Translations under genes and position numbers: made by a program
IMG/VR virus record: IMGVR_UViG_3300009370_000001
Origin: a virus
Lineage: Duplodnaviria; Caudoviricetes
Strand: one strand, 5' to 3'
Length of the DNA stretch: 64,000 nt
Shown: positions 22,575-41,275 of the stretch, piece by piece
Numbering within the stretch: position 1 is the stretch's first letter
Layout: each line of letters begins with the position of its first letter
The notes under the pieces: generated by a model
Told to the model about the DNA's origin: nothing
What the model saw: only the letters and a program-made list of their open reading frames with translations
The model's database searches: none

Positions 22575-23633
22575 ATGAAAGTAACCAAATCAAAACTAAA
22601 GCAGATTATTAATGAAGAACTGGGACAAGAACTCCAAGAACTTTATATCCCTTTTATTGGCGGGAAACTTCCCGAGAAAGAATATGCAATCCGTAGGAAG
22701 CAGTTGGACGCCATTGGCGATATGGCAAATGACCTAAGCGCGGAAGAGGAAGAACAATTCTTAAGGTACGCGAGCCGGTTGGTAGCACCCAAGGAGGAAG
22801 GGGAAGGCTTTGTCCTGCTGAGCGACAGGATAGAAGCTGGTCTTCTAGGACAATTGTTTCAACAACTGAGGCGCCTTCTGTATGACCGTCACCCTAAACA
22901 TAAAGCACAGAGTCTTATGAACCGTTTTGATCAAAACGCAGATCGGTTGTCCAAAGAGTTGGGCGGACTAGCCCAAGAAATAGCCGATCAGAAAGCTGAT
23001 GCTGCGGCAAGAGAAAAGGCCGCCCGGGAAGAAAGGTATGAGAGGGAACAACGAGAAGAAGAAGAAGAAAAAGCAAGAGCGCGAAATAGGAGAGACGCAG
23101 AAGAAGCCCGTTCGGCGCAGGAGTACCTGAGTATGTCCGATGCAGAACGTACTCGACTGCGCAAGCGGTCAGGATCGTCGTCCCACCGCGTTAACCCCGG
23201 CTTTGCAGGCTCAGGAAACATGGGCTATGGAGAATCACTCGATAGGAGAATCCCAATGAAAGTAACCAAAGCACAACTTCAAGAGATCATCCTTGAAGAG
23301 CTTACAATCGCTTTAGACGAGCTTGGCGCTGGCAAAGGCGCCGGCATGAGCCTGCGCGCTGCCCAACTCGGTGGAACCGGACACGGCAAGCGCGATGAAG
23401 ACGAAGAATACGTCGATCCCGAAGTCGATCCTTATGAGAAAGCGCTGGAAGCTCCGTTGGCCGAAGAAGAGGATGACGAGTGGATTCAAGACGCAGAGAA
23501 AGATATTAAAAAGCGCGGCACCGAGGGTGTCTGCACTGGGGATAAATTTGGTGGTCCCACATGCAAGCCTGGAACGAAACGATACAACTTAGCAAAGACG
23601 TTCCGGAAGATGGCGAAAGACCGCAAAAAATAA
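22575..23633 (+). CDS. Putative internal head/cargo protein with two MKVTK..L..II.EEL leaders
   Basis: AGGAG RBS; leader MKVTKSKLKQIINEEL, a charged coiled coil, then a second leader MKVTKAQLQEIILEEL at residue 228. Confidence 0.7.
   Translation: MKVTKSKLKQIINEELGQELQELYIPFIGGKLPEKEYAIRRKQLDAIGDMANDLSAEEEEQFLRYASRLVAPKEEGEGFVLLSDRIEAGLLGQLFQQLRRLLYDRHPKHKAQSLMNRFDQNADRLSKELGGLAQEIADQKADAAAREKAAREERYEREQREEEEEKARARNRRDAEEARSAQEYLSMSDAERTRLRKRSGSSSHRVNPGFAGSGNMGYGESLDRRIPMKVTKAQLQEIILEELTIALDELGAGKGAGMSLRAAQLGGTGHGKRDEDEEYVDPEVDPYEKALEAPLAEEEDDEWIQDAEKDIKKRGTEGVCTGDKFGGPTCKPGTKRYNLAKTFRKMAKDRKK
23256..23633 (+). CDS. Probable nested in-frame product (125 aa) from an internal start
   Basis: Own AGGAG RBS at 23244-23248; 23243-23270 matches the upstream start region 22562-22589 at 25 of 28 nt. 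Confidence 0.55.
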   Translation: MKVTKAQLQEIILEELTIALDELGAGKGAGMSLRAAQLGGTGHGKRDEDEEYVDPEVDPYEKALEAPLAEEEDDEWIQDAEKDIKKRGTEGVCTGDKFGGPTCKPGTKRYNLAKTFRKMAKDRKK

Positions 23634-23637
23634 AAGC

Positions 23638-23666
23638 TTGACTCTTGCTTGACAATGAGTTATACT
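23638..23666 (+). promoter_or_regulatory. Sigma70-type promoter TTGACT-N17-TATACT
   Basis: -35 at 23638-23643 and -10 at 23661-23666; GGAGG RBS before the GTG at 23692. Confidence 0.75.
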
Positions 23667-23691
23667 ATAAGAGTATCTATGCGGAGGGTAC

Positions 23692-26600
23692 GTGAAGTTT
23701 GCACATATAAGTGATACTCATATCAAAAATCTGAAGTATCATTATGAATATCGAGTCATTTTTGAGCAGTTGTATGAAACGCTGCGGGAACAAAAAGTCG
23801 ATTACATTATACACTGTGGGGATATAGCCCACACCAAGACCCAGATCTCACCAGAGTTTGTTGAGATGTGTTCTGATTTTTTTCGCAGTCTCGCTGAGAT
23901 TGCACCAACCTATATCATTCTAGGAAACCATGACGGCAACCTAAAGAACAGCAGTCGTCAAGACGCACTGACACCGATTGTCGACGCGCTCAATCTGCCG
24001 ACACTGCACTTGCTTAAAGATTCAGGCGAGACTCATTTGAACGACGATTTCTGTTTGAATGTCTTGTCTGTTTTTGATCGAGACAACTGGATGAAGCCCA
24101 CCAATACTGACAAGATCAATATTGCACTTTATCATGGCTCAATCTCTAATTGTAAAACTGATACCAATTGGACGATGAGTTTTGGTGAAGATGATATATC
24201 TATCTTTGACGATTTTGATTTTTCTATGCTTGGTGATATTCACCGTCGCCAATTCCTAGATCACGATGGACGCGTTTGGTATGCTGGCTCAACTGTTCAG
24301 CAGAACCATGGCGAGACCAACGACAAAGGTATTCTCATTTGGGATATCAAATCTAAAGACGAATGGGACATTGAGCCGATTGTGTTTAAAAACCCTAAGC
24401 CGTTCTTTACAATCCCGCTCACACTCAAGGGGCGGATGCCTCGCAATCTCCAAGTACCCACTGGCGCACGCCTGCGATTGGTTAGTAACAATAACCTTCC
24501 GCTTAACACGATGCGCCGAGCAATGGACATTGCGAAGCATCGCTTTAAGCCCGAGAGCATCTCGTTTCTCAACAGAGCAGCAGGCGAGCGCGGTAATGTA
24601 GAAGATCTAACTGACGGTATTAAGACAGAAAACCTGCGAGACATTAAAGTCCAAGAAGAACTGATTGACGAGTTCCTTTCAGATTACCAGACCGATGCCA
24701 CAACCCTAGAGCGCGTGTTTGAGCTTAACAGCAAGTACAACAAGATTATCGAGGACCGAGAAGAGATCTCTAGAAACGTAAACTGGAGAATCAAGTCGTT
24801 TAAATGGGACAATCTGTTTAATTACGGAAAGGATAACTCCATCGACTTTGAAAACCTTAACGGCATCATTGGCGTTTTTGGAAAGAACTTCAGCGGCAAA
24901 TCTAGCATCATTGATGCGGCCCTGTATACATTGTTCAACACCACCTCAAAGAACGAGCGCAAAAACCTCAACGTTATTAATCAACATCAAGAATCTTGCG
25001 AAGGCGTTTTAGAGATCGAGATCGGACACAAAGTCTACAACATTAAGCGCACCTCTGAAAAATATACGAAACGCTTGAAAGGTGTTGAGACCTTAGAAGC
25101 CAAAACAGATTTGAACTTCGAAGTCTATGACCCTGTCACAGACGAGACAACATCCTTAAACGGCACCACACGCAATCAGACGGACGCAAATATTCGAAAG
25201 CACTTCGGGTCCATGGATGATTTTATGGTGTCTTCTCTGGCAAGCCAGCACGGTGCATTGGGATTCATTGATGAGGGTTCGACACGTCGAAAGGAAATCA
25301 TCGCCAAGTTCCTCGATTTGGAGCTGTTTGACCAAAAGTTTAAGATGGCCAAAGACGACTCTGTTGAGGCCAAGGCTCTCCTGCGCAAGTATGAGGATCG
25401 GGATTACAACACTGAGGTGCAGGCATTAGAAACCAGCTTGGAAGACTTGACTGTACAAGCGGAAACTAATCGCACAACTTGCGAGGATTATCGTAAAGAA
25501 CTTAAACTTCTGAACGAAGGAGCGAGACGCTTAGACGAGAAGATCAATTCTATTCCTGGCAAGCTTATTGACATCACAAAAGTCATGACAGAGCAAAAAG
25601 ATAAGCAAGTGTTGTCGAAGTTGTTGGAGGAGAAGATAACAAGCCAAACAGCACTGGCACTTGTCAAGCAGCAGAAAGTGGCAATATCAGAGAGCTTATT
25701 AGAGCTTATCGATCATGCCACCCTCACAGCCGACAAAGCAGAAATTGATACTTTAGATCATAGTATTATGAATCTTCGAGAAGAGATTGAAAAGATTGGC
25801 AAAAAGGAAAAGCTTTTGAAGAGTATCCCCTGCGGCGATTCTTATCCTTCGTGTCGATTTATCAAAGATGCCTATATTGACGTAGCTAACAAGCCAGGAA
25901 TTGAAGCAGACCTTCACGCGGCCGCTATGCGTTTAGAAACGTTGTCTCCTGACGACACAGCCGAAAAGCTTGAAGAGTATCGTTTAACGCAAGAACTGAT
26001 TGTAGAACTAAAGGCGGAAGTTGCCGCGCTGCAATTAGAATGCGAACGTAATAAGAACACAAAGGCCACAACTGATCAAGAATTGATCACTCTCACCACC
26101 AAGGTCGCTGAATATAAGCAAAACAAAAAGGTTATTGATGGACTTGAAAAAGTCATCAAAGAACGACAAGGTTACCAAACTAAGATCGAGACTAAAAAAG
26201 AAAAGATTGAAATCTGTGATAACGAGACATTAGAGATTGTACGACAGGTGGGTTCCTATGAAGAGAAGATTGAATCTCTCAAGGCTCAAAGTAAGGAGTA
26301 TCAAGACCTTCAGAATAGTTATGCGGCATACGATTTGCTTATGCAATGCATGCACCCTAACGGAATCGCTTACGATATTATCAAGAAAAAGATTCCAGTC
26401 ATTAACCAGGAGATTGCAAAAGTTCTCGCCAACATTGTTGAGTTCGAAGTGTTTTTTGAGACCAGCGGAAACAAGCTTGACATCTTTATTAAGCATCCTA
26501 AGCACGACGAACGGCCCATTGAAATGGCGTCAGGTGCAGAAAAGACAATGGCCGCGATGGCAATTCGTTTGGCTCTTTTAAGTGTTTCTTCACTTCCAAA

Positions 26601-26799
26601 GTCGGACTTGTTTATCCTCGATGAGCCGGGCACCGCATTGGACGAAGAAAATATGGAGGGTTTTATTAGGATCTTGGAACTAATTAAGGTATATTTTAAG
26701 AACGTTCTCTTGATCTCGCATTTAGACTCTCTCAAAGATTGCGTCGACATGCAGATTGTAATAGAAAAGAAAAAAGGCTACGCAAAGGTAAACCAATAA
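23692..26799 (+). CDS. Fused SbcD/Mre11 nuclease and SbcC/Rad50 ABC ATPase (T4 gp47+gp46-like)
   Basis: Metallophosphoesterase motifs HISDTH, HCGDIAH, ILGNHD, LGDIH, YAGS; then Walker A GKNFSGKSS, coiled coil, hook-like PCGDSYPSC, signature ASGAE, Walker B LFILDE, and LISH. Confidence 0.9.
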   Translation: MKFAHISDTHIKNLKYHYEYRVIFEQLYETLREQKVDYIIHCGDIAHTKTQISPEFVEMCSDFFRSLAEIAPTYIILGNHDGNLKNSSRQDALTPIVDALNLPTLHLLKDSGETHLNDDFCLNVLSVFDRDNWMKPTNTDKINIALYHGSISNCKTDTNWTMSFGEDDISIFDDFDFSMLGDIHRRQFLDHDGRVWYAGSTVQQNHGETNDKGILIWDIKSKDEWDIEPIVFKNPKPFFTIPLTLKGRMPRNLQVPTGARLRLVSNNNLPLNTMRRAMDIAKHRFKPESISFLNRAAGERGNVEDLTDGIKTENLRDIKVQEELIDEFLSDYQTDATTLERVFELNSKYNKIIEDREEISRNVNWRIKSFKWDNLFNYGKDNSIDFENLNGIIGVFGKNFSGKSSIIDAALYTLFNTTSKNERKNLNVINQHQESCEGVLEIEIGHKVYNIKRTSEKYTKRLKGVETLEAKTDLNFEVYDPVTDETTSLNGTTRNQTDANIRKHFGSMDDFMVSSLASQHGALGFIDEGSTRRKEIIAKFLDLELFDQKFKMAKDDSVEAKALLRKYEDRDYNTEVQALETSLEDLTVQAETNRTTCEDYRKELKLLNEGARRLDEKINSIPGKLIDITKVMTEQKDKQVLSKLLEEKITSQTALALVKQQKVAISESLLELIDHATLTADKAEIDTLDHSIMNLREEIEKIGKKEKLLKSIPCGDSYPSCRFIKDAYIDVANKPGIEADLHAAAMRLETLSPDDTAEKLEEYRLTQELIVELKAEVAALQLECERNKNTKATTDQELITLTTKVAEYKQNKKVIDGLEKVIKERQGYQTKIETKKEKIEICDNETLEIVRQVGSYEEKIESLKAQSKEYQDLQNSYAAYDLLMQCMHPNGIAYDIIKKKIPVINQEIAKVLANIVEFEVFFETSGNKLDIFIKHPKHDERPIEMASGAEKTMAAMAIRLALLSVSSLPKSDLFILDEPGTALDEENMEGFIRILELIKVYFKNVLLISHLDSLKDCVDMQIVIEKKKGYAKVNQ

Positions 26800-27707
26800 T
26801 GAAATTATTAATGGAAAATTGGCGAAAATTTGTCAATGAAACTGAAGAAAATCTTCACGAACTGGATAAGGGCGCGCTTTATGCGTTAAATAATCCAGGC
26901 ACTCCCTTGGCAACTTACGTCGCGGTACTTAAGAAATATGCGAATGATCCAGAATTTGATAAGATCGCCGGCGCAGGCCAAGCCGATGGCCAGCCGGCCG
27001 ATGAGGTGGCTAAGGTGCAGCCGGGCGCTATAGCTGCACAAGATCTCACAGCGACCCAAGCAGAAATTGGATTTGGAAATAGTCTGGCTGATCAGGTAGC
27101 TAATAAATACGACGCCACTAAAACTGCTCTTGGACTAAACGGATCTCCAATTGTTATGGCTTCGAAGTCAGGTCCAGTTCCAATTTTAGTATACAATGGA
27201 AAATATATTTTAGACGGGCATCACCGGTGGTCACAAATTATGATGGTCAATCCAGGTGGTACTGTTAAGGTCGACAATTTAACTGGACCCGCTATCGACA
27301 ATGAAGAAGAGGCTCTTAAGGTTATGCAATTCGCCATCGCTGCGACTGCTGACAAAGTAGTGACAAAGCCATTTGAGGGTGAAAATTTAATGCAAGCAAA
27401 CGAGCAACAAGTAGCGAACTTTGTTCTTAAAAATGTTACTGATGAAGTCTTGCAGCTTTTAGTTCAGGCTGAGAAGATTGAAAAACCAGATAAACGCCTC
27501 GCTGCCCAATATATTGCTGGTAATCTGCCGGTCATTAAGAAGTCTGCCGGCCGGTTCTCTCGCGAGAAAAGTATGCCTCAAGCCGGCGACTCTGGCGTTT
27601 CACAGGATGCGGTTAATCAAGCGCTTGGCACAGGCAAGGTTAACTTTGATAGCCCCAAGCCGGCCGACGCATATGGGAACCGCCCAGAGAAAAAAGCCGC
27701 AGAATAA
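26799..27707 (+). CDS. ParB/Srx-fold protein with an MKLLMENWRKFVNE leader
   Basis: LTATQAEI and PILVYNGKYILDGHHRW motifs; start at the TAATG overlap with the previous stop. Confidence 0.7.
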   Translation: MKLLMENWRKFVNETEENLHELDKGALYALNNPGTPLATYVAVLKKYANDPEFDKIAGAGQADGQPADEVAKVQPGAIAAQDLTATQAEIGFGNSLADQVANKYDATKTALGLNGSPIVMASKSGPVPILVYNGKYILDGHHRWSQIMMVNPGGTVKVDNLTGPAIDNEEEALKVMQFAIAATADKVVTKPFEGENLMQANEQQVANFVLKNVTDEVLQLLVQAEKIEKPDKRLAAQYIAGNLPVIKKSAGRFSREKSMPQAGDSGVSQDAVNQALGTGKVNFDSPKPADAYGNRPEKKAAE

Positions 27708-27722
27708 TAAACGGAGATTATA

Positions 27723-28850
27723 ATGAACAACCCTGACGATTTTGATTTTGCCGAGACAGCAACGGAAACCAATCCGCCTGCTCTCGAAACCCCTAAAACT
27801 AGTGAGTTCGACGACTTTGATTTCGTCGATCACTATGGAGACGATGAAGAAGTAACCCACGAGAATTTGCTTCCGGAGAACACTGTTCCCGCATCACTGA
27901 ACTGTGCCATTGTTGGCGTAGGTGGAGGTGGGGGCAAGATGGCCAAAGCCTTTCTCGATCTTGGCTACAACAGGACTCTGCTTGTTAATACCACTGCTAA
28001 AGATATCCCTGACGCTGTGGGTGATGAGCATGTGGTTTTGATTCCCGATGCCGATGGCATTGGAAAAGATGTGAATTTAGGAAAAGCTGTGTTTGATGCA
28101 AACAGTACAGTCGTAGAAGATGCCCTCCGCACAAAATTAGGCAAAGTTGACTGGCTGTTCGTTTGCGCTGGAGGTGGCGGTGGAACTGGTTCTGCCGTCG
28201 CTTCTCTACACAGCGTCTTTGAGCGCTACCTTAAGTCGGTACAAGCCGAAGGCGAGGTAGTATACATTACGTCGTGGCCGACCGCACAAGAATGCTTGAA
28301 TCCAACAATTAGCAAGAATGCGTTAGCTTTACTTAATGATGTTTCCCAGCACACTCACATCGTTTTGGACAACGAACGCCAAGTTAAATTGTTGCGCGGA
28401 AAGGTGGGGATGCTGAATCTGTTTCCTTCTGCCAACACGGCGTTTGCAAAGTTAATGACTCAAATTCTCAAACTCTCCAGCGATAAATCGCCGATTCAAT
28501 CGTTTGATACCAAAGATCTAGAAAGATGTTTGCGAACCCCACAAAGAATGTTTATTGGATCGACAATGGTAAAAGATCCCGCTACGCCAAACCTAGGCGC
28601 TACGATTCTTCAGAATTGTATGAAGCGTTCTCCGTGTCCCGCCCCCAAAGGTAAGCCCCAAACCGGCGCATTATTATTGATTGCGTCGTCTGAGATGGCA
28701 AACGATCCAGAGATTAGCAAACACATGGATGCAGCGATTGGATATGTTGGCGGCAGAACAGACACACTTTTTTCAGGTGTTTATATTAATGATAATGTAC
28801 CTGGGCTCGTTGCCATACTATGTATGAATGGGCTACCCAAAGGAAAATAA
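27723..28850 (+). CDS. Tubulin/FtsZ-family GTPase (PhuZ/TubZ-like) with an acidic N-terminal extension
   Basis: IVGVGGGGGKMA (T1), GIGKD, GGGGGTGS (tubulin signature), LDNE, NTAFA, and SFDTKDL at the T7-loop position. Confidence 0.85.
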   Translation: MNNPDDFDFAETATETNPPALETPKTSEFDDFDFVDHYGDDEEVTHENLLPENTVPASLNCAIVGVGGGGGKMAKAFLDLGYNRTLLVNTTAKDIPDAVGDEHVVLIPDADGIGKDVNLGKAVFDANSTVVEDALRTKLGKVDWLFVCAGGGGGTGSAVASLHSVFERYLKSVQAEGEVVYITSWPTAQECLNPTISKNALALLNDVSQHTHIVLDNERQVKLLRGKVGMLNLFPSANTAFAKLMTQILKLSSDKSPIQSFDTKDLERCLRTPQRMFIGSTMVKDPATPNLGATILQNCMKRSPCPAPKGKPQTGALLLIASSEMANDPEISKHMDAAIGYVGGRTDTLFSGVYINDNVPGLVAILCMNGLPKGK

Positions 28851-28853
28851 TAA

Positions 28854-29015: not shown

Positions 29016-29360
29016 ATGAAAATCACCAAATCCCAATTGATGCAGATTATTAAAGAAGAAACATCTAGCTTAAACGAAATGCCGTATCGGCAAGGGGGTC
29101 GCCACGCCGGCTACGACGCCAATTGGCGCCGCACGTTTGGTGAGCCAGATCCCTCTCAAAAAGATACGGAAGCACAAGCCATTGCAGACATGGATGTGGG
29201 AATTGCGCGAGAGTTTGCGCAAGACGTTGTAGAATTTGTACGCCAGAATGTAGCTTCTGAGCAGGCACCAGCCCTGGCAGAAATGTCGATGGGGGACTTT
29301 TTGAGACTAGCTGCTGATTTAGCAGGCGATGAGCCGCTGGTAACACAAGTCGGAGAATAA
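29016..29360 (+). CDS. Putative head cargo protein with an MKITKSQLMQIIKEE leader
   Basis: GGAGG RBS; leader shared with 22575, 29362 and 33033. Confidence 0.7.
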   Translation: MKITKSQLMQIIKEETSSLNEMPYRQGGRHAGYDANWRRTFGEPDPSQKDTEAQAIADMDVGIAREFAQDVVEFVRQNVASEQAPALAEMSMGDFLRLAADLAGDEPLVTQVGE

Positions 29361-29361
29361 G

Positions 29362-29598
29362 ATGAAAGTAACCAAGTCCCAATTGATGCAGATCATCAAA
29401 GAGGAGATTACGAATATGAATCGTGGACTTCGAGAGTTTGCAGAATGGGTGATGGAAGTAAATGGACATATTGAAAGCTTGTCTGACGAATATGTATCGG
29501 CAGACGAATTGGCCACCGACGTTAATCTGTATGATTTATGGTACCAGGGAATCCCGGCTGCCGCGGCTGCGCAAGATCTTATAAGCGGTGACTATTGA
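29362..29598 (+). CDS. Putative head cargo protein with an MKVTKSQLMQIIKEE leader
   Basis: Leader nearly identical to 29016 at DNA level; acidic body. Confidence 0.7.
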   Translation: MKVTKSQLMQIIKEEITNMNRGLREFAEWVMEVNGHIESLSDEYVSADELATDVNLYDLWYQGIPAAAAAQDLISGDY

Positions 29599-29732: not shown

Positions 29733-29926
29733 GAGAAAGGCTTCGAAGGTTATGGAGTGTAGACGTGCTGGCTGTAGGGCTGGCATTACTTGCTTTGGCA
29801 TACGCGTGCTGTGTGCACCATCGAGCCCAAGAAAGATTGAATGAAATTGAAGGCGTGGTTAACGAAGGAATTCATATTCCGACACAGCCAACTCCACCAG
29901 TGAGGTTCGAACCAGAATGTCAATAA
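29729..29926 (+). CDS. Small single-TM protein (65 aa)
   Basis: MRERLRRLWSVDVLAVGLALLALAYACC...; start chosen by ATGA overlap. Confidence 0.55.
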   Translation: MRERLRRLWSVDVLAVGLALLALAYACCVHHRAQERLNEIEGVVNEGIHIPTQPTPPVRFEPECQ

Positions 29927-30921
29927 AGATTACAAAAAAGAAACTGATGGAAACTGTGGAGAAGGAAATGAAAAATGTCCTTCTAGAGACATATTTGCGC
30001 ATCCACCTTTCACAAGTTTTAACAGAGCGAACTGAGGGAATGTCGACTGCTAAAATTGAGGCGCTGCTCTCATCTGTGATTGACAATTTGGAGGGTATCG
30101 ATATGAGTATCGATTACCTCACTTCAGCGATAACTGGTCATGATCCATATTCTTTGGGGATCGCACAGAAGGTGGCCGGCCGCGGCGGCGGACGCTTCTC
30201 TCCTGTTCCATCCCCTCCGGAACAAGTCTCTGAAGCGGAAGAATTGTCGGAACTAAACCCTAATAAAACATTGGACCAACAAGAGCCCGAGGACTTTGAA
30301 GAGCCCGAGGAAGATCCTGACGCTTTAAGGTCCGATACAGTTTTAGGGGCCACCGGAAAATGGCCTGAAGAGCCTTCTGAGCCAGCGCAACAACGGCCTC
30401 CTCGTGAATATCGAAGTAAGGCCATTGAACTTTTGGCTTCGTTTCATGTAAATGTTGATCAGCAAGCTATAGATGCAGTGGCGTGGCAACTATACCACAA
30501 TGCCATGGGCGCCCCCACGCAGGCGATGGAAGAACCCCCGAAGAAACGAAAAAGATTTAAGTTTTTTGAAAACGTAGGAAAACGCCCTAATGCTGAGCTA
30601 CTAGCTTTATTGCGAACAATGTTGAAAACTGCCGAAGATCCTTATGCAGATGAACAACGACTCCTATCTTTAGGAGGTGAATTAGAAGACATGCTCGGCC
30701 AATTGGCGCCGGCAGCCGAGTGGGCCCAAGAGCAGGGCTATGACCGGCCTACATATAGTGAAAACCTACAGCAGTATATTAGAGAAGAACTCGAAGCTTA
30801 TTTGGAAGAAGAGGAAAAGAATAATCCTTGGGCCATATGCACTAGTTCTGTCGGCAGAGAAGATAAAGAAAAATATGAGAAATGCGTAAAAAGCATAAAA
30901 GCACAAAATAGAGGAAAATAA
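29917..30921 (+). CDS. Putative head-associated protein with a leader-like N-terminus
   Basis: MSIKITKKKLMETVEKEM leader, acidic/Pro linker, LQQYIREEL motif, and C-terminal NPWAIC...C module. Confidence 0.65.
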   Translation: MSIKITKKKLMETVEKEMKNVLLETYLRIHLSQVLTERTEGMSTAKIEALLSSVIDNLEGIDMSIDYLTSAITGHDPYSLGIAQKVAGRGGGRFSPVPSPPEQVSEAEELSELNPNKTLDQQEPEDFEEPEEDPDALRSDTVLGATGKWPEEPSEPAQQRPPREYRSKAIELLASFHVNVDQQAIDAVAWQLYHNAMGAPTQAMEEPPKKRKRFKFFENVGKRPNAELLALLRTMLKTAEDPYADEQRLLSLGGELEDMLGQLAPAAEWAQEQGYDRPTYSENLQQYIREELEAYLEEEEKNNPWAICTSSVGREDKEKYEKCVKSIKAQNRGK

Positions 30922-30922
30922 A

Positions 30923-32482: not shown

Positions 32483-33036
32483 TGGCAACAGTTTACGAAA
32501 TCGTACAAGGCTTAGCACAAGCCGCCGCTAATGCATATGATGGCGCGTTAGGAGAAGACTACGAGCCTGATAAGCCCGGTATTCTTCGCCGAGAAGAGGG
32601 TAATGCCCTCATCGATCAACGAGTGATGGATGGCTTCAATGTGAAGTTTTATGGGAATATGATGTGCCTTAGCTATCAATCAGAAATCCAACTTAAAGAA
32701 GTTATCGCCGGCGGCTTTGAGGAAGATATCGATCAGCGCCTCACTGACATTTCAGGATGGCTTAAGAAAGAATACAAAAAGATTACTGGCGATTCGGTCA
32801 GCCTGACGGCCGAGGGTGAAGTAGATATCCGCGTGGAAAATTCTTCTCGGGTACGAACCTGGGTAGTGGCGAAGAAGCACTATCGTGTGGGTGGCTTGGA
32901 CGAATCTATGAATGATGATAATCGAGGTTCCACCAATCCTGTGGAAGCCAAATGGAAGACCTTTTTAGATCAAGGCGGCTGGAATGGTAAAGGCGGCACG
33001 CGCCCCGATAACGATACGAGGAAGAAAGAATCATGA
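32482..33036 (+). CDS. Hypothetical protein
   Basis: 184 aa, AAGGA RBS, coupled to its neighbours. Confidence 0.65.
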   Translation: MATVYEIVQGLAQAAANAYDGALGEDYEPDKPGILRREEGNALIDQRVMDGFNVKFYGNMMCLSYQSEIQLKEVIAGGFEEDIDQRLTDISGWLKKEYKKITGDSVSLTAEGEVDIRVENSSRVRTWVVAKKHYRVGGLDESMNDDNRGSTNPVEAKWKTFLDQGGWNGKGGTRPDNDTRKKES

Positions 33037-33377
33037 AAATTTCGATTGCACGACTCAAAGAGATTATTATGGAAGAAGTTGCGGGAGCAACCACTGAAGG
33101 TCACGATAAAGATTGGGGTATGGGCAAGGACGAAAAGTCTCGCACCCGACCCGGAGAAGAAGATTATACCGGGCACAAGGGAGACGAGTCTCATACGCAC
33201 CCCGGAGAACTGGATTATGAACATGATGGAGAAGATCTCGAAGGAAAAGCCAACCGCGTTCTCGCAGACTTACATGATGTAATGACGGCCGCAGGCCTTA
33301 ATGTTGATCTAACTGCGGATGTAAGCGATGATGATATCGAAGCCGAAGAAGAAATAGAAATCGTAGATGATGAATGA
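33033..33377 (+). CDS. Acidic putative head cargo protein with an MKISIARLKEIIMEE leader
   Basis: Leader variant; internal near-repeat RPGEEDY / HPGELDY. Confidence 0.65.
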   Translation: MKISIARLKEIIMEEVAGATTEGHDKDWGMGKDEKSRTRPGEEDYTGHKGDESHTHPGELDYEHDGEDLEGKANRVLADLHDVMTAAGLNVDLTADVSDDDIEAEEEIEIVDDE

Positions 33378-34960
33378 GTTTTCAATTAGACAAGAAACAG
33401 CAAGTCAACGAGATTCTGAAATGCGGTAAAGACCCAGCTTACTTTCTCACAAACTATGCTCGTATCTCTCACCCAATGCATGGGTTGATTTTATTTGATA
33501 CATATGATTTTCAAGATGCGCTCCTAAATGACTTTAATGATTATCGCTTTAATGTCATCCTTAAAGCACGTCAGCTTGGCATCTCTACAATCACAGCCGG
33601 CTATATCGTATGGATGATGCTATTTCATCGCGATAAGGCCATTTTAGTTATGGCAACCAAGTTCGCCACCGCCGGCAACCTCGTCAAAAAGGTTAAAGGT
33701 ATCATGCGCAATGTACCAGACTGGCTAAAGATTGCAACAATCAGCGTTGACAACCGCACATCTTTCGAGTTGTCCAATGGTTCCTCTATTAAAGCCGCGT
33801 CCACTTCGGGCGATGCCGGTCGTTCCGAAGCACTGTCTCTTTTGGTTCTCGACGAGGCCGCCCACATCGAAGGCTTAGAAGAATTATGGACTGGTCTATA
33901 TCCGACGTTGTCCACAGGTGGGCGTTGTATTGCGTTGTCTACCCCAAATGGTGTGGGAAACTGGTTTCACAAGACCTGTACCGAAGCAGATTCTGGAGTA
34001 AACAATTTTAATTTAACGACGTTACCGTGGGATGTCCACCCAGATCGAGATGAACAATGGTACACTAAAGAAACAAGAAACATGTCCAAGCGCCAGATTG
34101 CACAAGAATTACAATGTAATTTCAACACGTCTGGTGAAACAGTGATTGATCCCGAATGTATGGAATGGCTGCTATCGAATGTTAAAGAGCCCAAACATCG
34201 CACGGGATTTGACCGTAATTTTTGGATTTGGGAAGAATTTGATCCTACCTGTAATTATTTGATGGTGGTGGATGTATCTCGTGGCGATGGCGCCGATTTT
34301 TCTACATTTCATATTGTCAAATTAGAAACCTTAGAAGTCATCGGAGAATATCAAGGAAAACTAACTCCTGATTTATTTGCTAACATGCTTAATCAAGTCG
34401 GCCGAGAGTTTGGAAATGCGATGATGGTAGTAGAAAATAATAATATTGGCTATACAGTACTTGACAAACTTGTAGAATACGGTTATCCTAATATATATTA
34501 TTCTATAAAGTCAACGCATGAATATATTGAGCAACATCAAGCTGAATATAAAACTAACACGATTGCCGGCTTCTCTACTACACAGAAGACCCGACCTTTA
34601 ATAGTTGCAAAATTAGAAGAGTTTATAAGAAATAAACTAATTAAAGTGTATTCATCCCGCACGGTTAATGAAATGAAAACTTTTATTTGGAAAAATGGAA
34701 AGCCTCAAGCTATGAAGAGTTATAATGATGATTTGATTATGGCTTTAGCAATTGCATGTTGGGTGCGTGACACTGCTATTCAAACTAATGCACGTGATTT
34801 AAACTATCAGAAGGCGTTCGTAGATGCAATTATTACGACACGCACTACGATGAACACGACTATTTCGGGCCAACAGGGGTACAAACAAGAGAATGCCCTA
34901 GATAAAAAAACGACAGAGGCGGCAAAACTTTATGAACAATATAAATGGATTATTAAGTGA
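33374..34960 (+). CDS. terL: Terminase large subunit
   Basis: LKARQLGIST (Walker A), LLVLDEAA (Walker B), STPNG (C-motif), VDVSRGDGADFS and DDLIMALA nuclease acids. Confidence 0.95.
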   Translation: MSFQLDKKQQVNEILKCGKDPAYFLTNYARISHPMHGLILFDTYDFQDALLNDFNDYRFNVILKARQLGISTITAGYIVWMMLFHRDKAILVMATKFATAGNLVKKVKGIMRNVPDWLKIATISVDNRTSFELSNGSSIKAASTSGDAGRSEALSLLVLDEAAHIEGLEELWTGLYPTLSTGGRCIALSTPNGVGNWFHKTCTEADSGVNNFNLTTLPWDVHPDRDEQWYTKETRNMSKRQIAQELQCNFNTSGETVIDPECMEWLLSNVKEPKHRTGFDRNFWIWEEFDPTCNYLMVVDVSRGDGADFSTFHIVKLETLEVIGEYQGKLTPDLFANMLNQVGREFGNAMMVVENNNIGYTVLDKLVEYGYPNIYYSIKSTHEYIEQHQAEYKTNTIAGFSTTQKTRPLIVAKLEEFIRNKLIKVYSSRTVNEMKTFIWKNGKPQAMKSYNDDLIMALAIACWVRDTAIQTNARDLNYQKAFVDAIITTRTTMNTTISGQQGYKQENALDKKTTEAAKLYEQYKWIIK

Positions 34961-34968
34961 GATTATAA

Positions 34969-36939
34969 ATGGCAATTCAAGATAAAAACCCAGCAAACTC
35001 TGAAACGAGCTTATTCAAAGCGTTAACGCGTCTCTTCTCGGGTCCCATTGTTAACTATCGTTCTCAATCGGGACGTCGCATTCGGCGTCAACATTTAGAT
35101 AAATTTTCCTCTCGCTTTAAATCGGCATCGGGGCAACAGTTTAAAAAGACACTTTATAATCCTTTAGATGTTATTGCTACAAATGCGATTCAAAACCAAC
35201 GACGTTCAGAGCGTTATGTAGATTTTGATCAGATGGAATATATGCCTGAAATCGCATCTACGATGGACATCTATGCAGATGAGATGACAACATATTCTGA
35301 ACTGCGCCCGATGCTTAATGTCCGATGTCCTAATGAAGAAATTAGTGCGGTACTGGATGTCTTATTTGATAGCATCCTTAACTTAAAATACAATCTTTTT
35401 GGTTGGGCCCGCACGATGTGTAAATATGGTGATTTTTTCCTGTATGTTGATATCGATGACAAATATGGAGTGACATCTGTTCTACCGCTCCCGGCCCAAG
35501 AAGTTGAAAGACTAGAAGGTAAAGATGCCACCAACCCGAATTATGTGCAGTTTCAGTGGAACTCTGCTGGGATGACCTTTGAAAACTGGCAAGTTGCCCA
35601 TTTCCGCATCTTAGGAAATGATAAGTACATTCCGTATGGAACATCAATTTTGGAGCCAGCACGACGCATTTGGCGCCAGCTAGTGTTGATGGAAGATGCT
35701 ATGATGGCATATCGTGTTATCCGTTCTTCTGAGCGCCGAGTGTTTAAGATTGATGTCGGTTCTATTCCTCCCAATGAAGTCGAACAGTATATGGAAAAAA
35801 TTGTGACCAACCTTAAGCGTCATCAAGTTATTGATCCTGAAAACGGACGTGTGGATTTGCGATACAACCCAATGTCTATCGAAGAAGATTATTTCATCCC
35901 AGTTCGCGCTGGCTCGGTCACAGAGATCAAGAACCTCGCCGGCGGCACCAACACTACCGATATTGATGATATCAAGTATTTGCGTGATAAGCTTTTTTCC
36001 GCACTCAAGATACCTCAATCTTATCTAACGATGGGAGAAGGTGCCGAAGAAGACAAGACTACTCTTGCGCAGAAAGACATTCGTTTTGCAAGAACCATTC
36101 AGAGACTCCAAAGAGTTATTATCGCAGAGCTTACAAAGATTGGTATCATCCATCTGTACACATTAGGCTTCAGAGGCGACGACTTATTAAGCTTCAGCTT
36201 AACTCTCAATAACCCGTCCAAGATTGCAGAACTTCAAGAAATTGAGACCTGGAAGCAGAAGTTCGACATTGCCGCTGCAGCCACAGAAGGTTATTTCTCA
36301 CGGCGCTGGGTGTCCGAACATATCTTTGGTATGAATCATGAAGACTTTGGTCGCAATCAACGCGAAATGTATTATGATCGTAAGCACGACGCCGCTCTTC
36401 AGGCAGTCGCTGAAGCTGCTGCAGCCGAAGGCGCCGGCGGCGGAATGGGAGGCGATCTGGGGGGAGACCTTGGAGGCGATCTCGGAGGCGATCTCGGAGG
36501 AGATCTTGGTGGTGATCTTGGCGGAGGCGAGGAAATGCCCGCAGGTGAAGCCGGCGGTGATGAGGGAGGTGGCGATGATTCAGCGCTCCTAGCCGTCCCA
36601 CCCGGCTCTCGTAACGAGCCTCGTCTGACCCCTGGAGCAAAGGGAAAAGTATATTATCCTAAGAAGGTTGATGGCCGACCAGCAGGAGCCCGGACGCGCT
36701 CTATGGGCGCGAAGTACAATCGAGAAAAAGCTAGCTCGGCTATTCGGAATGTTGTCCCAGGCGCTGAGATCGGTTCCCTCGCAAAGATGGGCAGCTTGGG
36801 AAATGGTATTTATGAAGGACAAGCACCTATTTATAACGCAAGTGAGCTTTCTGAAGAAGAAAAGCTTTTTCACGTAAGCGATTCGATACGGGCGCTCCTT
36901 AAAGGATTAGAAGGATTGGAGAATAATAATGAAGGGTAG
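34969..36939 (+). CDS. gp20: Portal protein (T4 gp20-like)
   Basis: Follows terL; YGTSILEPARRIWRQLVLMEDAMMAYRVIR, RVFKIDVG, EEDYFIP, DIKYLRDKLFSALKIP, and QKDIRFARTIQRLQ. Confidence 0.93.
   Translation: MAIQDKNPANSETSLFKALTRLFSGPIVNYRSQSGRRIRRQHLDKFSSRFKSASGQQFKKTLYNPLDVIATNAIQNQRRSERYVDFDQMEYMPEIASTMDIYADEMTTYSELRPMLNVRCPNEEISAVLDVLFDSILNLKYNLFGWARTMCKYGDFFLYVDIDDKYGVTSVLPLPAQEVERLEGKDATNPNYVQFQWNSAGMTFENWQVAHFRILGNDKYIPYGTSILEPARRIWRQLVLMEDAMMAYRVIRSSERRVFKIDVGSIPPNEVEQYMEKIVTNLKRHQVIDPENGRVDLRYNPMSIEEDYFIPVRAGSVTEIKNLAGGTNTTDIDDIKYLRDKLFSALKIPQSYLTMGEGAEEDKTTLAQKDIRFARTIQRLQRVIIAELTKIGIIHLYTLGFRGDDLLSFSLTLNNPSKIAELQEIETWKQKFDIAAAATEGYFSRRWVSEHIFGMNHEDFGRNQREMYYDRKHDAALQAVAEAAAAEGAGGGMGGDLGGDLGGDLGGDLGGDLGGDLGGGEEMPAGEAGGDEGGGDDSALLAVPPGSRNEPRLTPGAKGKVYYPKKVDGRPAGARTRSMGAKYNREKASSAIRNVVPGAEIGSLAKMGSLGNGIYEGQAPIYNASELSEEEKLFHVSDSIRALLKGLEGLENNNEG
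36448..36519 (+). repeat. Degenerate 12-bp tandem repeat x6 encoding (GGDL)6
   Basis: Directly visible in the portal C-terminal low-complexity tail. Confidence 0.85.
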
Positions 36940-38285: not shown

Positions 38286-38834
38286 ATGAAACTCTTATTA
38301 GAACATTGGAATCGGTATCTCCAAGAAGAGGAAGAGGCGCGCCCTCTCTATGGCGACGAAAAAGAAGATGCCCCTGACTCCGAAGAGTCGACCGAAGAAT
38401 TTCAAAAATATGTAGAAGCAGAAAGGAAAAAAACTATGGCGGCATGCGCCGACGTTAGAGAATTTGAGCCCGAGCAACGCTCCAGCCCAGAATTTGCAAC
38501 CGCTTTAGAGAAGTGTAAAAAAGCTAATGAAGAACTAGAAAACAATATTCGAGAAAAATCTCCTTTTAATATTGGTGATAATCCCGACAATGCTCCCGCA
38601 GACCCTACACCCGAAGAGCCTCAACAAAACAAGGGGCGAGACGTACAAAACGTAATGCGGTCAAATCAAGTTAAATTAACCAACGTTGAGAAAGAAGTTG
38701 GTTCGATAGAACAGGATTTGGAAACTATTATACAGAGAGTTCAAGCCTTATTAGGTCGCGTCCGACAGGAACTTACAGAAAGCGATATTCGAGAGATCAT
38801 CAAAGAAGAATACAAGCTTTATCAGGAGCAGTAG
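38286..38834 (+). CDS. Putative head cargo protein with an MKLLLEHWNRYLQEE leader
   Basis: Leader matches 26799; C-terminal IREIIKEEY resembles the other leader family. Confidence 0.65.
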   Translation: MKLLLEHWNRYLQEEEEARPLYGDEKEDAPDSEESTEEFQKYVEAERKKTMAACADVREFEPEQRSSPEFATALEKCKKANEELENNIREKSPFNIGDNPDNAPADPTPEEPQQNKGRDVQNVMRSNQVKLTNVEKEVGSIEQDLETIIQRVQALLGRVRQELTESDIREIIKEEYKLYQEQ

Positions 38835-39139: not shown

Positions 39140-39185
39140 TAAGTGGATGCTGCAGCCGGTCAGACGGTGCTGCAAAGGTTCTTAG
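39117..39185 (+). CDS. Candidate 22-aa micro-ORF MNTNAWNNKWMLQPVRRCCKGS
   Basis: AAGGA RBS upstream; stop two bases before the protease ATG. Confidence 0.4.
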   Translation: MNTNAWNNKWMLQPVRRCCKGS

Positions 39186-39187
39186 CT

Positions 39188-39796
39188 ATGGGAAAGAAAT
39201 TACTAAGAGAATATTACGCGCTTTGCGAAGGCGGCGTATGCCAAGATCTGTTAACGGAAGATGAGAAGCGCTTCGTTGCTAGCGGAGGAATGATGCTTTC
39301 GGGCAAACTCCAAGAAGCAGATGTGCAAAACGGCAACGGTCGTATTTACCCTTACCGTGTATTAATGCGAGAAATTGAAACTTACAAAAAACTCGTAAAA
39401 GAAAATCGTGCTCTCGGAGAGCTTGATCATCCAGATGATTCTGTCATCAATTTAAAGAATGCATCGCATATGGTGACTGATGTATGGATGGAAAATAAAA
39501 ATGTGATGGGCAAAGTAAAAGTACTGGACACCCCATCGGGCAATATCTTGCGCGGCCTTGTAAATAGCGGCGCACAGCTTGGTATCTCTTCACGAGGAAT
39601 GGGATCGGTGAGTGAGGCTCAAGGACAAACAATCGTCGAAGACGATTTCCAACTTATCTGTTTTGATTTTGTATCGGAACCCTCAACACCGGGAGCATAT
39701 ATGATGAAAGAGGCCAAAGACTTAAGCACTCCCAATGTCTTTACCAAAGCTGATCGTATCAATCGCTTATTGAACGAGGTATTGACGGATGAGTGA
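39188..39796 (+). CDS. gp21: Prohead protease (T4 gp21-like)
   Basis: NGNGRIYP, ALGELDHP, LGISSRGMGS, and FDFVSEPSTPGA; ATG 39188 preferred over GTG 39143. Confidence 0.9.
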   Translation: MGKKLLREYYALCEGGVCQDLLTEDEKRFVASGGMMLSGKLQEADVQNGNGRIYPYRVLMREIETYKKLVKENRALGELDHPDDSVINLKNASHMVTDVWMENKNVMGKVKVLDTPSGNILRGLVNSGAQLGISSRGMGSVSEAQGQTIVEDDFQLICFDFVSEPSTPGAYMMKEAKDLSTPNVFTKADRINRLLNEVLTDE

Positions 39797-40859
39797 GCAA
39801 TGGTCTAGTTATAGTGACCAGCAACAACGCGTTGCAACCTGGAGAACCTTTTTAAACGAAGGTTCTTTTCTGCAACGCTTGCGAAAAAAAAGCGCTCCCG
39901 GCCTGGAAGACATGTCGGATGCCGAACTTCGTGGAGTATTTGCGACCGACCCGGATCCAGCAAACCAGCGTCAAGCAGCATACCTCTATATTAGACGTGC
40001 AAGCAACACTGAAGAGCAACAAAGCCGCACAGAAGAATTAATGGACATTGCCAAGTCTAAAGATCCTACACCCACATCGCGTACTGGGACGACTGCCTTG
40101 GGTGAACCGGTCCCCCCCATCCCAGATGAGCCCTCACGACTTAGCACACGCATGCCCACCACTACTCCGGCACCAGTCGAAGACGAAGAGATGGTCGTTT
40201 GGGCAAAAAAAAGCGCACCTCCACTAAAAAAGGCTCTTGAAAGTGGGGGTTCCAAAGATGTAGCAGAGGCGCGCACTTGGATCGCACGCCGGACGGAGGA
40301 AGAAAAAAACGCTCTGATAAACGCTCTGGCAGATATCGGACACACTTTTGTAGAAGACGATTCCGCAGATGAGAGCCCTGGTTCAGAAGAGACAGATATA
40401 CCGGAACCTCTTCTTAATAGCGACGACCACACTTTAACTGTGATTCATTTTCTTGGATTGGATGACGCACCTTTGGATTCTATTCATTACCCAACAGACG
40501 AAGCCTGGATGAATGCATCGGAGAGGCAGAAGCGAATCTGGTATCGTTATTACGCGGATGTTATACAGGATCGCGGCCAGGATTCGGACGGTGAAGATCC
40601 TTTATATAGATCATTTCACAGCTTTTTCTTGAAGCCCGAGACGGATCTCTTTCTCCCAGAAGCGTTTCGCCAGTGGCTCGCTTGGGAAATTGAGAATCCT
40701 GAAAAAACACCTGAAGTAAAAGCTTGGTGCGGCGAAAAAGAATGCACCCCGGCCGACATTGAGAGCAAACGCGAGTCACTTAAAGAGCTTTATATATTGG
40801 AAGAATCTCAAATGAGACGGTGGCACCAATTAGCAGGAATTAACCCGAGAGTATTATGA
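39789..40859 (+). CDS. Putative internal head protein with a C-terminal scaffold-like LAGI motif
   Basis: N-terminal WRTFLNE resembles the 26799/38286 leader; ends ESQMRRWHQLAGINPRVL. Confidence 0.6.
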   Translation: MSEQWSSYSDQQQRVATWRTFLNEGSFLQRLRKKSAPGLEDMSDAELRGVFATDPDPANQRQAAYLYIRRASNTEEQQSRTEELMDIAKSKDPTPTSRTGTTALGEPVPPIPDEPSRLSTRMPTTTPAPVEDEEMVVWAKKSAPPLKKALESGGSKDVAEARTWIARRTEEEKNALINALADIGHTFVEDDSADESPGSEETDIPEPLLNSDDHTLTVIHFLGLDDAPLDSIHYPTDEAWMNASERQKRIWYRYYADVIQDRGQDSDGEDPLYRSFHSFFLKPETDLFLPEAFRQWLAWEIENPEKTPEVKAWCGEKECTPADIESKRESLKELYILEESQMRRWHQLAGINPRVL

Positions 40860-41275
40860 AAAAATCAGACCTTAAACAATTAATCAAGCCACTTGTCAAA
40901 GAGTGTATTCATGAAGTCCTCCTTGAAGAAGGGCTTTTATCCAATGTGGTTTCCGAAGTGGCGAAAGGGCTCCAGACGACCCCGCTTGTGGAAGTGCAGC
41001 AGTCTTCGAATCAGGGACCAACACCATCAGTCGGCATTCAGACGACCGAACAAGACGTGGCGTCACGGGCTCAGTTAAAAGAATATAGAAAAAAGATGAT
41101 GGAAGTTGTAGGAAAAGATGCGTATCAGGGAGTGGACTTATTTGAGAATACAGCCCCACTCTCAAATCACATTCCAGAACAAGGAAGCGCAGACTTAGGA
41201 GATCCCAGTGACGCTGGAGTGGACATTAGCTCTTTAGTAGGAAATTCCTCTAAAATTTGGCAGGCATTAAAGTAG
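40856..41275 (+). CDS. Putative head-associated protein
   Basis: MKKSDLKQLIKPLVKECIHEVLLEE leader-like N-terminus. Confidence 0.6.
   Translation: MKKSDLKQLIKPLVKECIHEVLLEEGLLSNVVSEVAKGLQTTPLVEVQQSSNQGPTPSVGIQTTEQDVASRAQLKEYRKKMMEVVGKDAYQGVDLFENTAPLSNHIPEQGSADLGDPSDAGVDISSLVGNSSKIWQALK

What the first reader, a model, noticed from the sequence alone, without database searches (positions are those of the whole stretch)
22575..41275. Modular leader-tag system that may load diverse cargo proteins into the capsid
Unrelated protein bodies share short N-terminal tags. Type 1, MK[IV][TS]K..L..II.EE, occurs at 22575, 23256, 29016, 29362 and 33033, with variants at 29917 and 40856. Type 2, MKLL.E.W..[FY]..E, occurs at 26799 and 38286, with WRTFLNE at 39789. 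The 29016 and 29362 tags are near-identical in DNA while their bodies differ, as expected if tags are swapped onto new payloads. By analogy with the T4 capsid-targeting sequence, which is cleaved after Glu by gp21, these may be packaging signals for ejected or internal proteins. That would be a potentially programmable delivery system.
Basis: partly seen in the sequence, partly recalled or inferred. Interest (0 to 1): 0.75.

Follow-up and report, generated by a model that had tools for sequence, protein, structure and literature searches.

The report
Capsid-loading leader tags, marine T4-like phage
An uncultured 203-kb marine T4-like phage and its relatives put one of two 14-residue leader peptides, built like phage T4's "load into the head, then cut off" signal, on thousands of unrelated proteins; this most likely marks proteins for packing into the virus head, but no experiment has shown it.

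Summary
Two leader families sit on unrelated proteins far more often than chance allows.

- **Shared layout:** both types are MK, five residues, then hydrophobic-x-x-hydrophobic-[I/L]-x-Glu14. This is the layout of the T4 IPII/IPIII capsid targeting sequence (MKTYQEFIAE). It is also the layout of the predicted cleavage site of this lineage's own major capsid protein (LLRE, in register with T4 FLTE|A).
- **Protease:** the phage encodes a T4 gp21-type (S77) prohead protease.
- **Spread of Type 1:** it matches 11,405 protein clusters in public data. Its synonymous codons vary freely, so selection acts on the peptide.
- **Interchangeable leaders:** one body family (ParB/Srx-like, 26799) carries Type 2, long Type 2 or Type 1-like leaders in different phages.
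- **Position:** leader-bearing genes sit inside the head-gene module. Gene 22575 has the same promoter-like motif as the scaffold, sheath and tube genes.
- **New point:** Type 1 also recurs inside proteins, including copies without Met. This suggests polyproteins that are cut apart.

It is a new variant of a known kind. This scan has flagged the same phenomenon before, for Type 2 in this genome and for similar tags in several other T4-like phages.

The parts
22575..22640 (+). Type 1 leader (MKVTKSKLKQIINEEL...) at the start of a 352-aa ORF (22575-23633)
   Evidence: HMM E 6e-10. Orthologues keep the leader.
22531..22538 (+). CTATTTAT promoter-like motif 44 nt upstream of the Type 1 gene 22575
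   Evidence: The same motif lies 37-62 nt upstream of the scaffold (48805), 41564, tail sheath (55388) and tail tube (58383) genes. It occurs 35 times on + and 3 times on - in the genome. Neighbouring genes have TTGACA/TATAAT-type promoters.
23256..23321 (+). Second, internal Type 1 copy (MKVTKAQLQEIILEEL) in frame in the same ORF, with its own AGGAG site. It precedes a conserved basic two-Cys C-terminal domain.
   Evidence: The internal copy is kept in P0168 and is degenerate in the L068 homologue.
26799..26840 (+). Type 2 leader (MKLLMENWRKFVNE) on a 302-aa ParB/Srx-like protein (26799-27707)
   Evidence: HMM E 1e-9. The model gives helix 2-16 at pLDDT about 50, set apart from a body at pLDDT above 90. 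The best fold matches, all weak, are ParB-N domains.
29016..29081 (+). Type 1 leader on a 114-aa acidic protein (29016-29360)
29362..29427 (+). Type 1 leader on a 78-aa acidic protein (29362-29598)
   Evidence: In the family alignment the leader joins the body directly or through an insert of up to about 45 aa (3 aa in one member).
29917..29997 (+). Degenerate Type 1 leader (MSIKITKKKLMETVEKE...) on a 334-aa protein (29917-30921)
   Evidence: Orthologues of the N-terminal domain carry the canonical leader. In L034 and L061 the two halves are separate genes, each with its own leader.
30766..30816 (+). Internal Type 1-like motif (LQQYIREELEAYLEEE) just before the conserved C-terminal NPWAICT...KCVKS peptide of the 29917 protein
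   Evidence: Profile hit E 0.52, read together
33033..33098 (+). Divergent Type 1 leader (MKISIARLKEIIMEEV) on a 114-aa very acidic protein directly upstream of the large terminase gene
38286..38327 (+). Type 2 leader (MKLLLEHWNRYLQE) on a 182-aa head-module protein between portal and protease
   Evidence: At this spot relatives carry other small genes with a leader: Type 1 in L129, a Type 1/2 hybrid in L130.
38787..38831 (+). Type 1-like motif (IREIIKEEY...) at the C-terminus of the 38286 protein
   Evidence: Weak HMM hit, E 2.7. A lead only.
39143..39796 (+). Prohead protease, T4 gp21 type (Peptidase_S77). The true start is probably the MGKKLL Met at about 39188.
   Evidence: Pfam E 3e-30, PHROG 207 E 5e-54.
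39789..39860 (+). Long-form Type 2 leader (MSEQWSSYS...WRTFLNE) on a 356-aa acidic head-module protein. Its C-terminus (RRWHQLAGI) copies the scaffold C-terminal motif.
   Evidence: long forms; scaffold C-termini
40856..40933 (+). Conserved head-module gene directly after the protease. Its N-terminus MKKSDLKQLIKPLVKE resembles Type 1.
   Evidence: Present in all five relatives examined. No HMM hit to Type 1.
48805..49983 (+). Scaffold (gp22-like by position), acidic, with conserved N-terminal helix and C-terminal R[WMF]xxLAG[IL]
50022..51812 (+). Major capsid protein (Gp23 family). The predicted maturation site LLRE60|N is in register with T4 FLTE65|A.
   Evidence: Pfam E 1e-71; alignment
34969..36939 (+). 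Portal protein (gp20 type)
   Evidence: tblastn to T4-like portals

Best explanation
Type 1 (MKITKSQLKQIIKEE) and Type 2 (MKLLLENWRKFLNE) are lineage-specific versions of the T4 capsid targeting sequence.

The proposed mechanism has three steps, all inferred:
1. Each leader forms a short amphipathic helix that docks the attached protein onto the assembling prohead core.
2. After the shell closes, the gp21-type S77 protease cuts after Glu14, or after a back-up L-x-E a few residues later. This frees the cargo inside the head.
3. The cargo stays with the DNA or is ejected into the next host.

Where several leaders lie in one ORF (22575, 29917 and many database proteins), the same cuts would split a polyprotein into separate cargo pieces.

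Shown here: the motif architecture, its scale, peptide-level selection, interchange of leaders and bodies, the protease, the matching capsid-protein cleavage site, and the head-module position.

Inferred only: docking, cleavage, encapsidation and ejection.
For: 1. **Architecture.** Both leaders are MK + 5 aa + hydrophobic8-x-x-hydrophobic11-[I/L]12-x-E14. T4 IPII/IPIII read MKTYQEFIAE. In T4, residues 4 and 7 carry targeting and residues 8 and 10 carry processing, and gp21 cuts after L/I-x-E (PMC9026906).
2. **Protease.** An S77 protease lies in the window. It is also in 31 of 44 tag-bearing contigs of at least 28 kb, and in all 3 that are at least 90% complete.
3. **Capsid protein site.** The MCP alignment places LLRE, LLKE, IVSE or LISE of this lineage in register with the T4 gp23 cut FLTE|A. 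The leaders therefore end like the phage's own maturation site.
4. **Portability.**
   - 170 Type 1 copies on 119 viral contigs yield 154 complete bodies of 30 aa or more, which fall into 116 BLAST clusters.
   - 11,405 clusters at 50% identity match the Type 1 profile at E<=0.001.
   - The 26799 body family carries Type 2, long Type 2 or Type 1-like leaders in different phages.
   - The 29362 family has the leader joined directly or through an insert of up to about 45 aa.
5. **Peptide-level selection.** There are 155 different 45-mers among the 170 copies. Synonymous codons are mixed, and only a Shine-Dalgarno site is conserved upstream.
6. **Head-module position.** 38286, 39789 and 40856 lie between portal and MCP. 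Relatives carry other small genes with a leader at the same spot. This is where T4 has its core genes 67 and 68.
7. **Promoter.** The motif that precedes the scaffold, sheath and tube genes also precedes 22575. It lies 26-59 nt upstream of 8 of 159 Type 1 genes in relatives, against about 0.8 expected.
8. **Structure.** The leader is a separate low-confidence helix ahead of a confident body.
9. **Internal copies.** About half of the internal copies lack Met, yet they keep the rest of the motif.
Against: - There are no proteomic, cleavage or packaging data for any member. All support is by analogy and co-occurrence.
- The link with the S77 protease may reflect only that the tags are confined to one T4-like lineage.
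- A 10-14 residue resemblance to the T4 CTS cannot establish homology.
- Gp21-type cleavage needs only L/I-x-E. The 16-residue conservation therefore implies another partner, which is unidentified.
- Some cargoes look like ordinary cytoplasmic enzymes. The 194-aa Type 2 protein outside the window contains a DMDGVL motif, which I read as HAD-nucleotidase-like; it has no Pfam match.
- Most Type 1 bodies are acidic, with median pI 5.1. The T4 internal proteins are DNA-binding and rich in lysine (PMC3012670).
- Five adjacent Type 2 copies share an identical 26-nt start. DNA-level recombination therefore also shapes the leaders.
Confidence: 0.58

Rival explanations
1. The leaders are docking helices for some other common partner, unrelated to the capsid. 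Candidates are a hub protein, the phage tubulin (27723-28850), a membrane or lysis complex, or a chaperone. In that case they set localisation or oligomerisation in the infected cell.
For: The leaders are amphipathic helices conserved well beyond what a protease site needs. Type 1 genes in the window lie next to the tubulin gene and among small membrane-protein genes.
Against: This does not explain the invariant Glu at the leader's end, the match to the MCP maturation site, the head-module position of tagged genes, or the late-type promoter motif. No partner is indicated.
Confidence: 0.15
2. The motif is mainly a processing site. It marks where the S77 protease, or another protease, cuts polyproteins or activates proproteins. 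Targeting is provided by something else or is not needed.
For: The 150 best-scoring database hits, a list biased toward multi-copy proteins, hold 152 internal and 125 N-terminal motif copies. About half of the internal copies lack Met. In 22575 and 29917 an internal copy sits directly before a conserved C-terminal peptide.
Against: In T4 the gp21 protease acts inside the prohead on core and shell proteins (PMC9026906), so processing implies prior encapsidation. Positions 3-12 are conserved far beyond the L/I-x-E that gp21-type enzymes need.
Confidence: 0.12
3. The shared starts are a by-product of DNA-level cassette shuffling or of an optimised translation-initiation region. The peptide itself would have no function.
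For: Five adjacent Type 2 genes, including a stub that codes for MKLLLENWRGL and then a stop, share an identical 26-nt start. Fusions and splits occur exactly at leaders.
Against: Across 170 Type 1 copies the synonymous sites vary freely while the peptide is near-invariant. The two Type 2 copies in the window differ at synonymous sites. Internal copies without a start codon keep the peptide.
Confidence: 0.05
4. The leaders are recognition sequences for a modifying enzyme, RiPP-like. An earlier report of this scan proposed this for a shared tag in phage RB43 that travels with a radical-SAM enzyme.
For: An earlier scan note (e1-127136) shows that a shared N-terminal tag need not be a capsid signal.
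Against: No radical-SAM domain is found in this complete 203-kb genome, although the search detects one in all 14 control genomes.
Confidence: 0.03

Closest known systems
Capsid targeting sequence (CTS) of phage T4 internal proteins IPII/IPIII (MKTYQEFIAE) and IPI, with the polymorphic internal-protein genes of T-even phages
   Same: - N-terminal leader beginning MK and shared by unrelated bodies.
- Hydrophobic or aromatic residues at -6 and -3, I/L at -2, and Glu at the cut.
- A gp21-type protease is encoded.
- The cargo genes are variable.
   Different: - The leader is 14 residues rather than 10, with extra conserved positions (T4-K5-Q7 in Type 1; E6-N7 in Type 2).
- At least two or three interchangeable leader types occur in one genome.
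- The scale is thousands of cargo clusters, against three to a handful in T-even phages.
- Copies also occur inside proteins.
- Most cargoes are acidic.
- Function is untested.
Propeptides of T4 head proteins cut by gp21 (gp23 FLTE|A, gp24 MAKINELLRE, gp67, gp68, gp22, Alt)
   Same: The ends of the leaders match the predicted MCP maturation site of this lineage (LLRE). Tagged genes lie where T4 has core genes 67 and 68. Multi-site cleavage of core proteins is a precedent for the multi-leader ORFs.
   Different: No sequence similarity of the bodies to gp67 or gp68 was detected. The T4 propeptides are not portable tags.
Propeptide-bearing inner-body and ejection proteins of giant phages phiKZ, 201phi2-1 and SPN3US
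   Same: Many head-internal proteins are processed after Glu by a diverged gp21 homologue. Redundant cleavage sites occur in their propeptides (PMC9026906).
   Different: Those propeptides are long and not a single conserved portable peptide. Their cleavage motif is S/A-x-E.

Membership tests
T4-type capsid targeting sequence / gp21-cleaved propeptide | Short N-terminal leader (10-19 aa) shared by otherwise unrelated proteins | tested here: met
T4-type capsid targeting sequence / gp21-cleaved propeptide | Leader ends in the gp21 cleavage motif L/I-x-E | tested here: met
   IKE14 in Type 1 and LNE14 in Type 2. 123 of 156 Type 1 copies have a further [LIVM]xE within residues 16-30.
T4-type capsid targeting sequence / gp21-cleaved propeptide | The phage encodes a gp21-type (S77) prohead protease and a T4-type head module | tested here: met
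T4-type capsid targeting sequence / gp21-cleaved propeptide | Sequence relatedness to the T4 CTS (residues 4, 7, 8 and 10) | tested here: inconclusive
   The spacing pattern is the same. However, 10 residues cannot show homology.
T4-type capsid targeting sequence / gp21-cleaved propeptide | Leader is necessary and sufficient for encapsidation | not testable with these tools
   Needs reporter fusions in a cultured member
T4-type capsid targeting sequence / gp21-cleaved propeptide | Leader is removed in the mature virion, and cargo is present in heads | not testable with these tools
   Needs virion mass spectrometry
RiPP-like leader served by a radical-SAM enzyme | Co-encoded radical-SAM/SPASM enzyme | tested here: not met
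   No PF04055 match in the complete genome; all controls positive
Recombination cassette of PeSL type (DNA-level element) | Conservation lies in the nucleotide sequence rather than in the peptide | tested here: not met
   Type 1 shows free synonymous variation. Only the local cluster of five Type 2 copies shares an identical 26 nt.
Sec/Tat signal peptide | Hydrophobic core of 10 or more uncharged residues after a basic N-region | tested here: not met
   The sequences show charged amphipathic leaders (K, Q and E at every second or third position).

The most novel reading that the evidence does not exclude
Type 1 is a reusable 'dock and cut' module. An abundant marine T4-like lineage uses it to load a very large, fast-changing set of proteins into the head. 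These include multi-leader polyproteins that are packed as one unit and then cut into several cargoes. If so, the injected proteome of uncultured phages could be read directly from sequence.
Probability: 0.35. Interest if true: 0.75.

Novelty: new variant of a known kind. Interest (0 to 1): 0.55.

Why it matters
If the leaders work as in T4, they give a sequence rule for listing the proteins that an abundant group of uncultured ocean phages delivers with its DNA. Such proteins are likely to include first-strike anti-defence and host-takeover factors. The rule would cover 11,405 protein clusters that currently have no annotation. It would also extend T4's three-protein curiosity into a general loading system with several interchangeable leaders and polyprotein cargo. 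The leader itself could be tested as a packaging tag in phages of marine bacteria.

Tried and rejected
- **Complex prediction.** Folding the 29362 family with the scaffold family returned no verdict. It counts neither for nor against binding.
- **Searches of cultured phages.** A DNA search of the terminase-portal region found nothing. A 22-aa tag query by tblastn also found nothing. That query is too short to be informative.
- **Literature.** A search for the tag strings found no paper that describes them. No paper links the CTS to marine T4-like phages.
- **T4 late promoter.** TATAAATA is not used upstream of structural genes here. CTATTTA[TA] takes that position.
- **Family libraries.** Pfam and PHROGs give nothing for the Type 1 bodies or for the multi-leader proteins, apart from one spurious S_100 hit on the motif.
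- **Fold search.** The 26799 body gave only weak ParB-N matches in the PDB (best E 0.012).
- **Paralogy of 29016 and 29362.** The multiple alignment hinted that they are diverged paralogues, but BLASTP of the bodies finds nothing.
- **Radical-SAM leader idea.** Rejected for this genome.
Full report
**Setting.** The window is bases 84192-148191 of a complete 203,204-bp viral record with direct terminal repeats. It carries a T4-type morphogenesis module:

| Gene | Coordinates | Evidence |
|---|---|---|
| Large terminase | 33374-34960 | |
| gp20-type portal | 34969-36939 | |
| gp21-type S77 prohead protease | 39143-39796 | Pfam 3e-30, PHROG 5e-54 |
| Acidic scaffold | 48805-49983 | |
| Gp23-family major capsid protein (MCP) | 50022-51812 | |
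| Tail sheath, tail tube, baseplate hub | downstream | |

The nearest cultured phages are Microcystis phage Mel-JY01 and Flavobacterium phage immuto. Their portals are only 38-40% identical to this one.

- Small HMMs find Type 1 at 22575, 23256, 29016, 29362 and 33033.
- They find Type 2 at 26799 and 38286, plus seven further gene starts elsewhere in the genome. All copies are on the + strand.
- A single regex covering both types gives 8 hits in the gene calls. The expectation is 0.135 (maximum 2) in 200 shuffled proteomes.
  - 23256 is an in-frame internal copy with its own ribosome site.
  - 29917 is a degenerate copy whose orthologues have the canonical leader.
  - 40856 only resembles Type 1 and gives no HMM hit.
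  - The 39789 N-terminus is the long form of Type 2 (MSxWSSFK...ENFRKFVNE) seen on other proteins.
  - The 29016 and 29362 leaders are 84% identical in DNA, and most differences are synonymous. Their bodies show no BLASTP similarity.

**One architecture for both types.**
- Type 1 (MKITKSQLKQIIKE) and Type 2 (MKLLLENWRKFLNE) are both 14 residues up to a Glu.
- Both place hydrophobic or aromatic residues at positions 8 and 11 and I/L at position 12.
- T4 IPII and IPIII begin MKTYQEFIAE (read from the T4 record). That is the same pattern, four residues shorter.
- In T4, residues 4 and 7 carry targeting and residues 8 and 10 carry processing. gp21 cuts after L/I-x-E (PMC9026906).
- An alignment of MCP N-termini puts LLRE60 of this phage in register with the T4 gp23 cut FLTE|A. 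Relatives have LLRE, LLKE, IVSE or LISE at that position.
- The leaders therefore end like the phage's own predicted maturation site.

**Scale and portability.**
Each copy lies at the start of an ORF of 46-375 aa.
- The 154 complete bodies of 30 aa or more fall into 116 BLAST clusters.
- A profile of 80 leaders matches 11,405 of 1.84 billion cluster representatives at E<=0.001.
- No Pfam model covers the motif.
- No paper in the searched library mentions the strings.
- The 29362 family shows the leader joined to the body directly or through an insert of up to about 45 aa.
- Of 120 homologues of the 26799 body, 56 carry Type 2 by a strict regex. Most of the rest carry close variants (ENFRKF), long forms, or Type 1-like leaders such as MKITKDYLKQIIEEE. 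The leader types are therefore interchangeable on one body.
- That body folds confidently (pLDDT 90). The leader is a detached helix at low confidence. The best fold matches, all weak, are ParB-N/Srx domains.

**Peptide or DNA?**
- Among the 170 Type 1 copies there are 155 different 45-mers.
- Synonymous codons are mixed, for example Glu15 as GAA 86 times and GAG 84 times.
- Only a Shine-Dalgarno site is conserved upstream. Selection therefore acts on the peptide.
- DNA-level exchange also happens. Five adjacent Type 2 starts outside the window share an identical 26 nt, and one of them is a stub followed by a stop.
- This fits recombination at the leader as the way payloads are swapped. It does not explain the peptide conservation.

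**Link to the head.**
- All tag-bearing contigs of at least 28 kb look like fragments of genomes of roughly 180 kb. Of these, 31 of 44 carry an S77 protease, as do all 3 that are at least 90% complete.
- Three genes with leaders lie between portal and MCP in the window: 38286 (Type 2), 39789 (long Type 2) and 40856 (Type 1-like).
- In five relatives the 40856 family always follows the protease.
- The slot before the protease holds different small leader-bearing genes: Type 1 in L129, and MKLTEENLKKFILEQ in L130. This is where T4 has its core genes 67 and 68.
- A motif CTATTTA[TA] occurs 35 times on the + strand and 3 times on the - strand. It lies 37-62 nt upstream of the scaffold, 41564, sheath and tube genes, and 44 nt upstream of the Type 1 gene 22575. 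The neighbours of 22575 have sigma-70-type promoters.
- In relatives the motif lies 26-59 nt upstream of 8 of 159 Type 1 genes, against about 0.8 expected. I read it as a late promoter. That reading is inferred from position only.

**Internal copies.**
- The best-scoring database proteins have two to four Type 1 copies. In the top 150, a list biased toward multi-copy proteins, there are 125 N-terminal and 152 internal copies.
- About half of the internal copies lack Met (N, T, G, V and others) yet keep the rest of the motif.
- Many internal copies are preceded by E-x-K, which is what an in-frame ribosome site would encode. This fits fusion of neighbouring tagged genes through loss of a stop codon.
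- Examples in the window:
  - 22575 has two copies. The second precedes an invariant basic two-Cys C-terminal domain.
  - 29917 combines domains that are separate genes, each with its own leader, in L034 and L061. It has an internal Type 1-like stretch before its conserved C-terminal peptide.
- Such fusions would be harmless if the leader is a cleavage point. I take this as the most interesting new point, but it is an inference.

**Rivals.**
- A leader for a radical-SAM enzyme was proposed elsewhere in this scan for RB43. It is excluded here, because the genome has no such enzyme.
- A signal peptide is excluded by the charged, amphipathic sequence.
- A purely DNA-level cassette is excluded for Type 1.
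- A docking helix for another partner, and a pure processing signal, remain possible but explain less.

**Verdict.**
- The finding is real. It is best explained as a lineage-specific, greatly expanded version of the T4 capsid-targeting/propeptide system. My confidence is about 0.6.
- Packaging, cleavage and the receptor are untested.
- The same phenomenon has been noted repeatedly in this scan, for Type 2 in this genome (e1-5378495) and for other T4-like phages.
- The concept is anticipated in the T4 literature (PMC3012670, PMC9026906).
- I therefore class it as a new variant of a known kind, of moderate interest.

Noticed in passing
window 22531, 41526, 45372, 48766, 55326, 58346 and others: CTATTTA[TA] is strongly strand-biased (35 on +, 3 on - in this genome; 148 against 16 in related contigs). 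It lies 25-62 nt upstream of structural genes. It is probably this lineage's late promoter in place of T4's TATAAATA.
   Followed up: partly
window 49954-49980 and 40818-40856; L123:52-516: Scaffold proteins of this lineage end in R[WMF]xxLAG[IL]. The 39789 protein ends the same way (RRWHQLAGI). A protein of Flavobacterium phage immuto carries the motif near its N-terminus (FRRMQKLAGI). This may be a second, shell-binding address motif.
   Followed up: no
window 41280-41522: A ribosomal protein S21 gene (Pfam 2e-9) sits inside the head-gene module. It is also present in the relatives and in Microcystis phage Mel-JY01.
   Followed up: no
window 27723-28850: A tubulin/FtsZ-family GTPase (Pfam 2e-8, weak PhuZ PHROG) lies between a Type 2 and a Type 1 gene in a T4-like phage.
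   Followed up: no
window 23469-23633 and 30817-30921: There are two short, highly conserved, basic, two-Cys C-terminal peptides (GVCTGDKFGGPTCKPGTKRYNLAK... and NPWAICTSSVGREDKEKYEKCVKS...). Each lies downstream of an internal Type 1-like motif. Their function is unknown.
   Followed up: partly
window 39188-39260; L132:4782-5024: The protease's likely N-terminus (MGKKLLREYY, conserved in relatives) resembles the first half of Type 2. T4 gp67 contains LIKEE, like the Type 1 core. Both are leads only.
   Followed up: no
genome 20050-20085 (outside the window): An orphan Type 2 stub codes for MKLLLENWRGL and then a stop. It shares the identical 26-nt start with four neighbouring Type 2 genes, which looks like a footprint of recombination at the leader.
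   Followed up: partly
   Followed up: no
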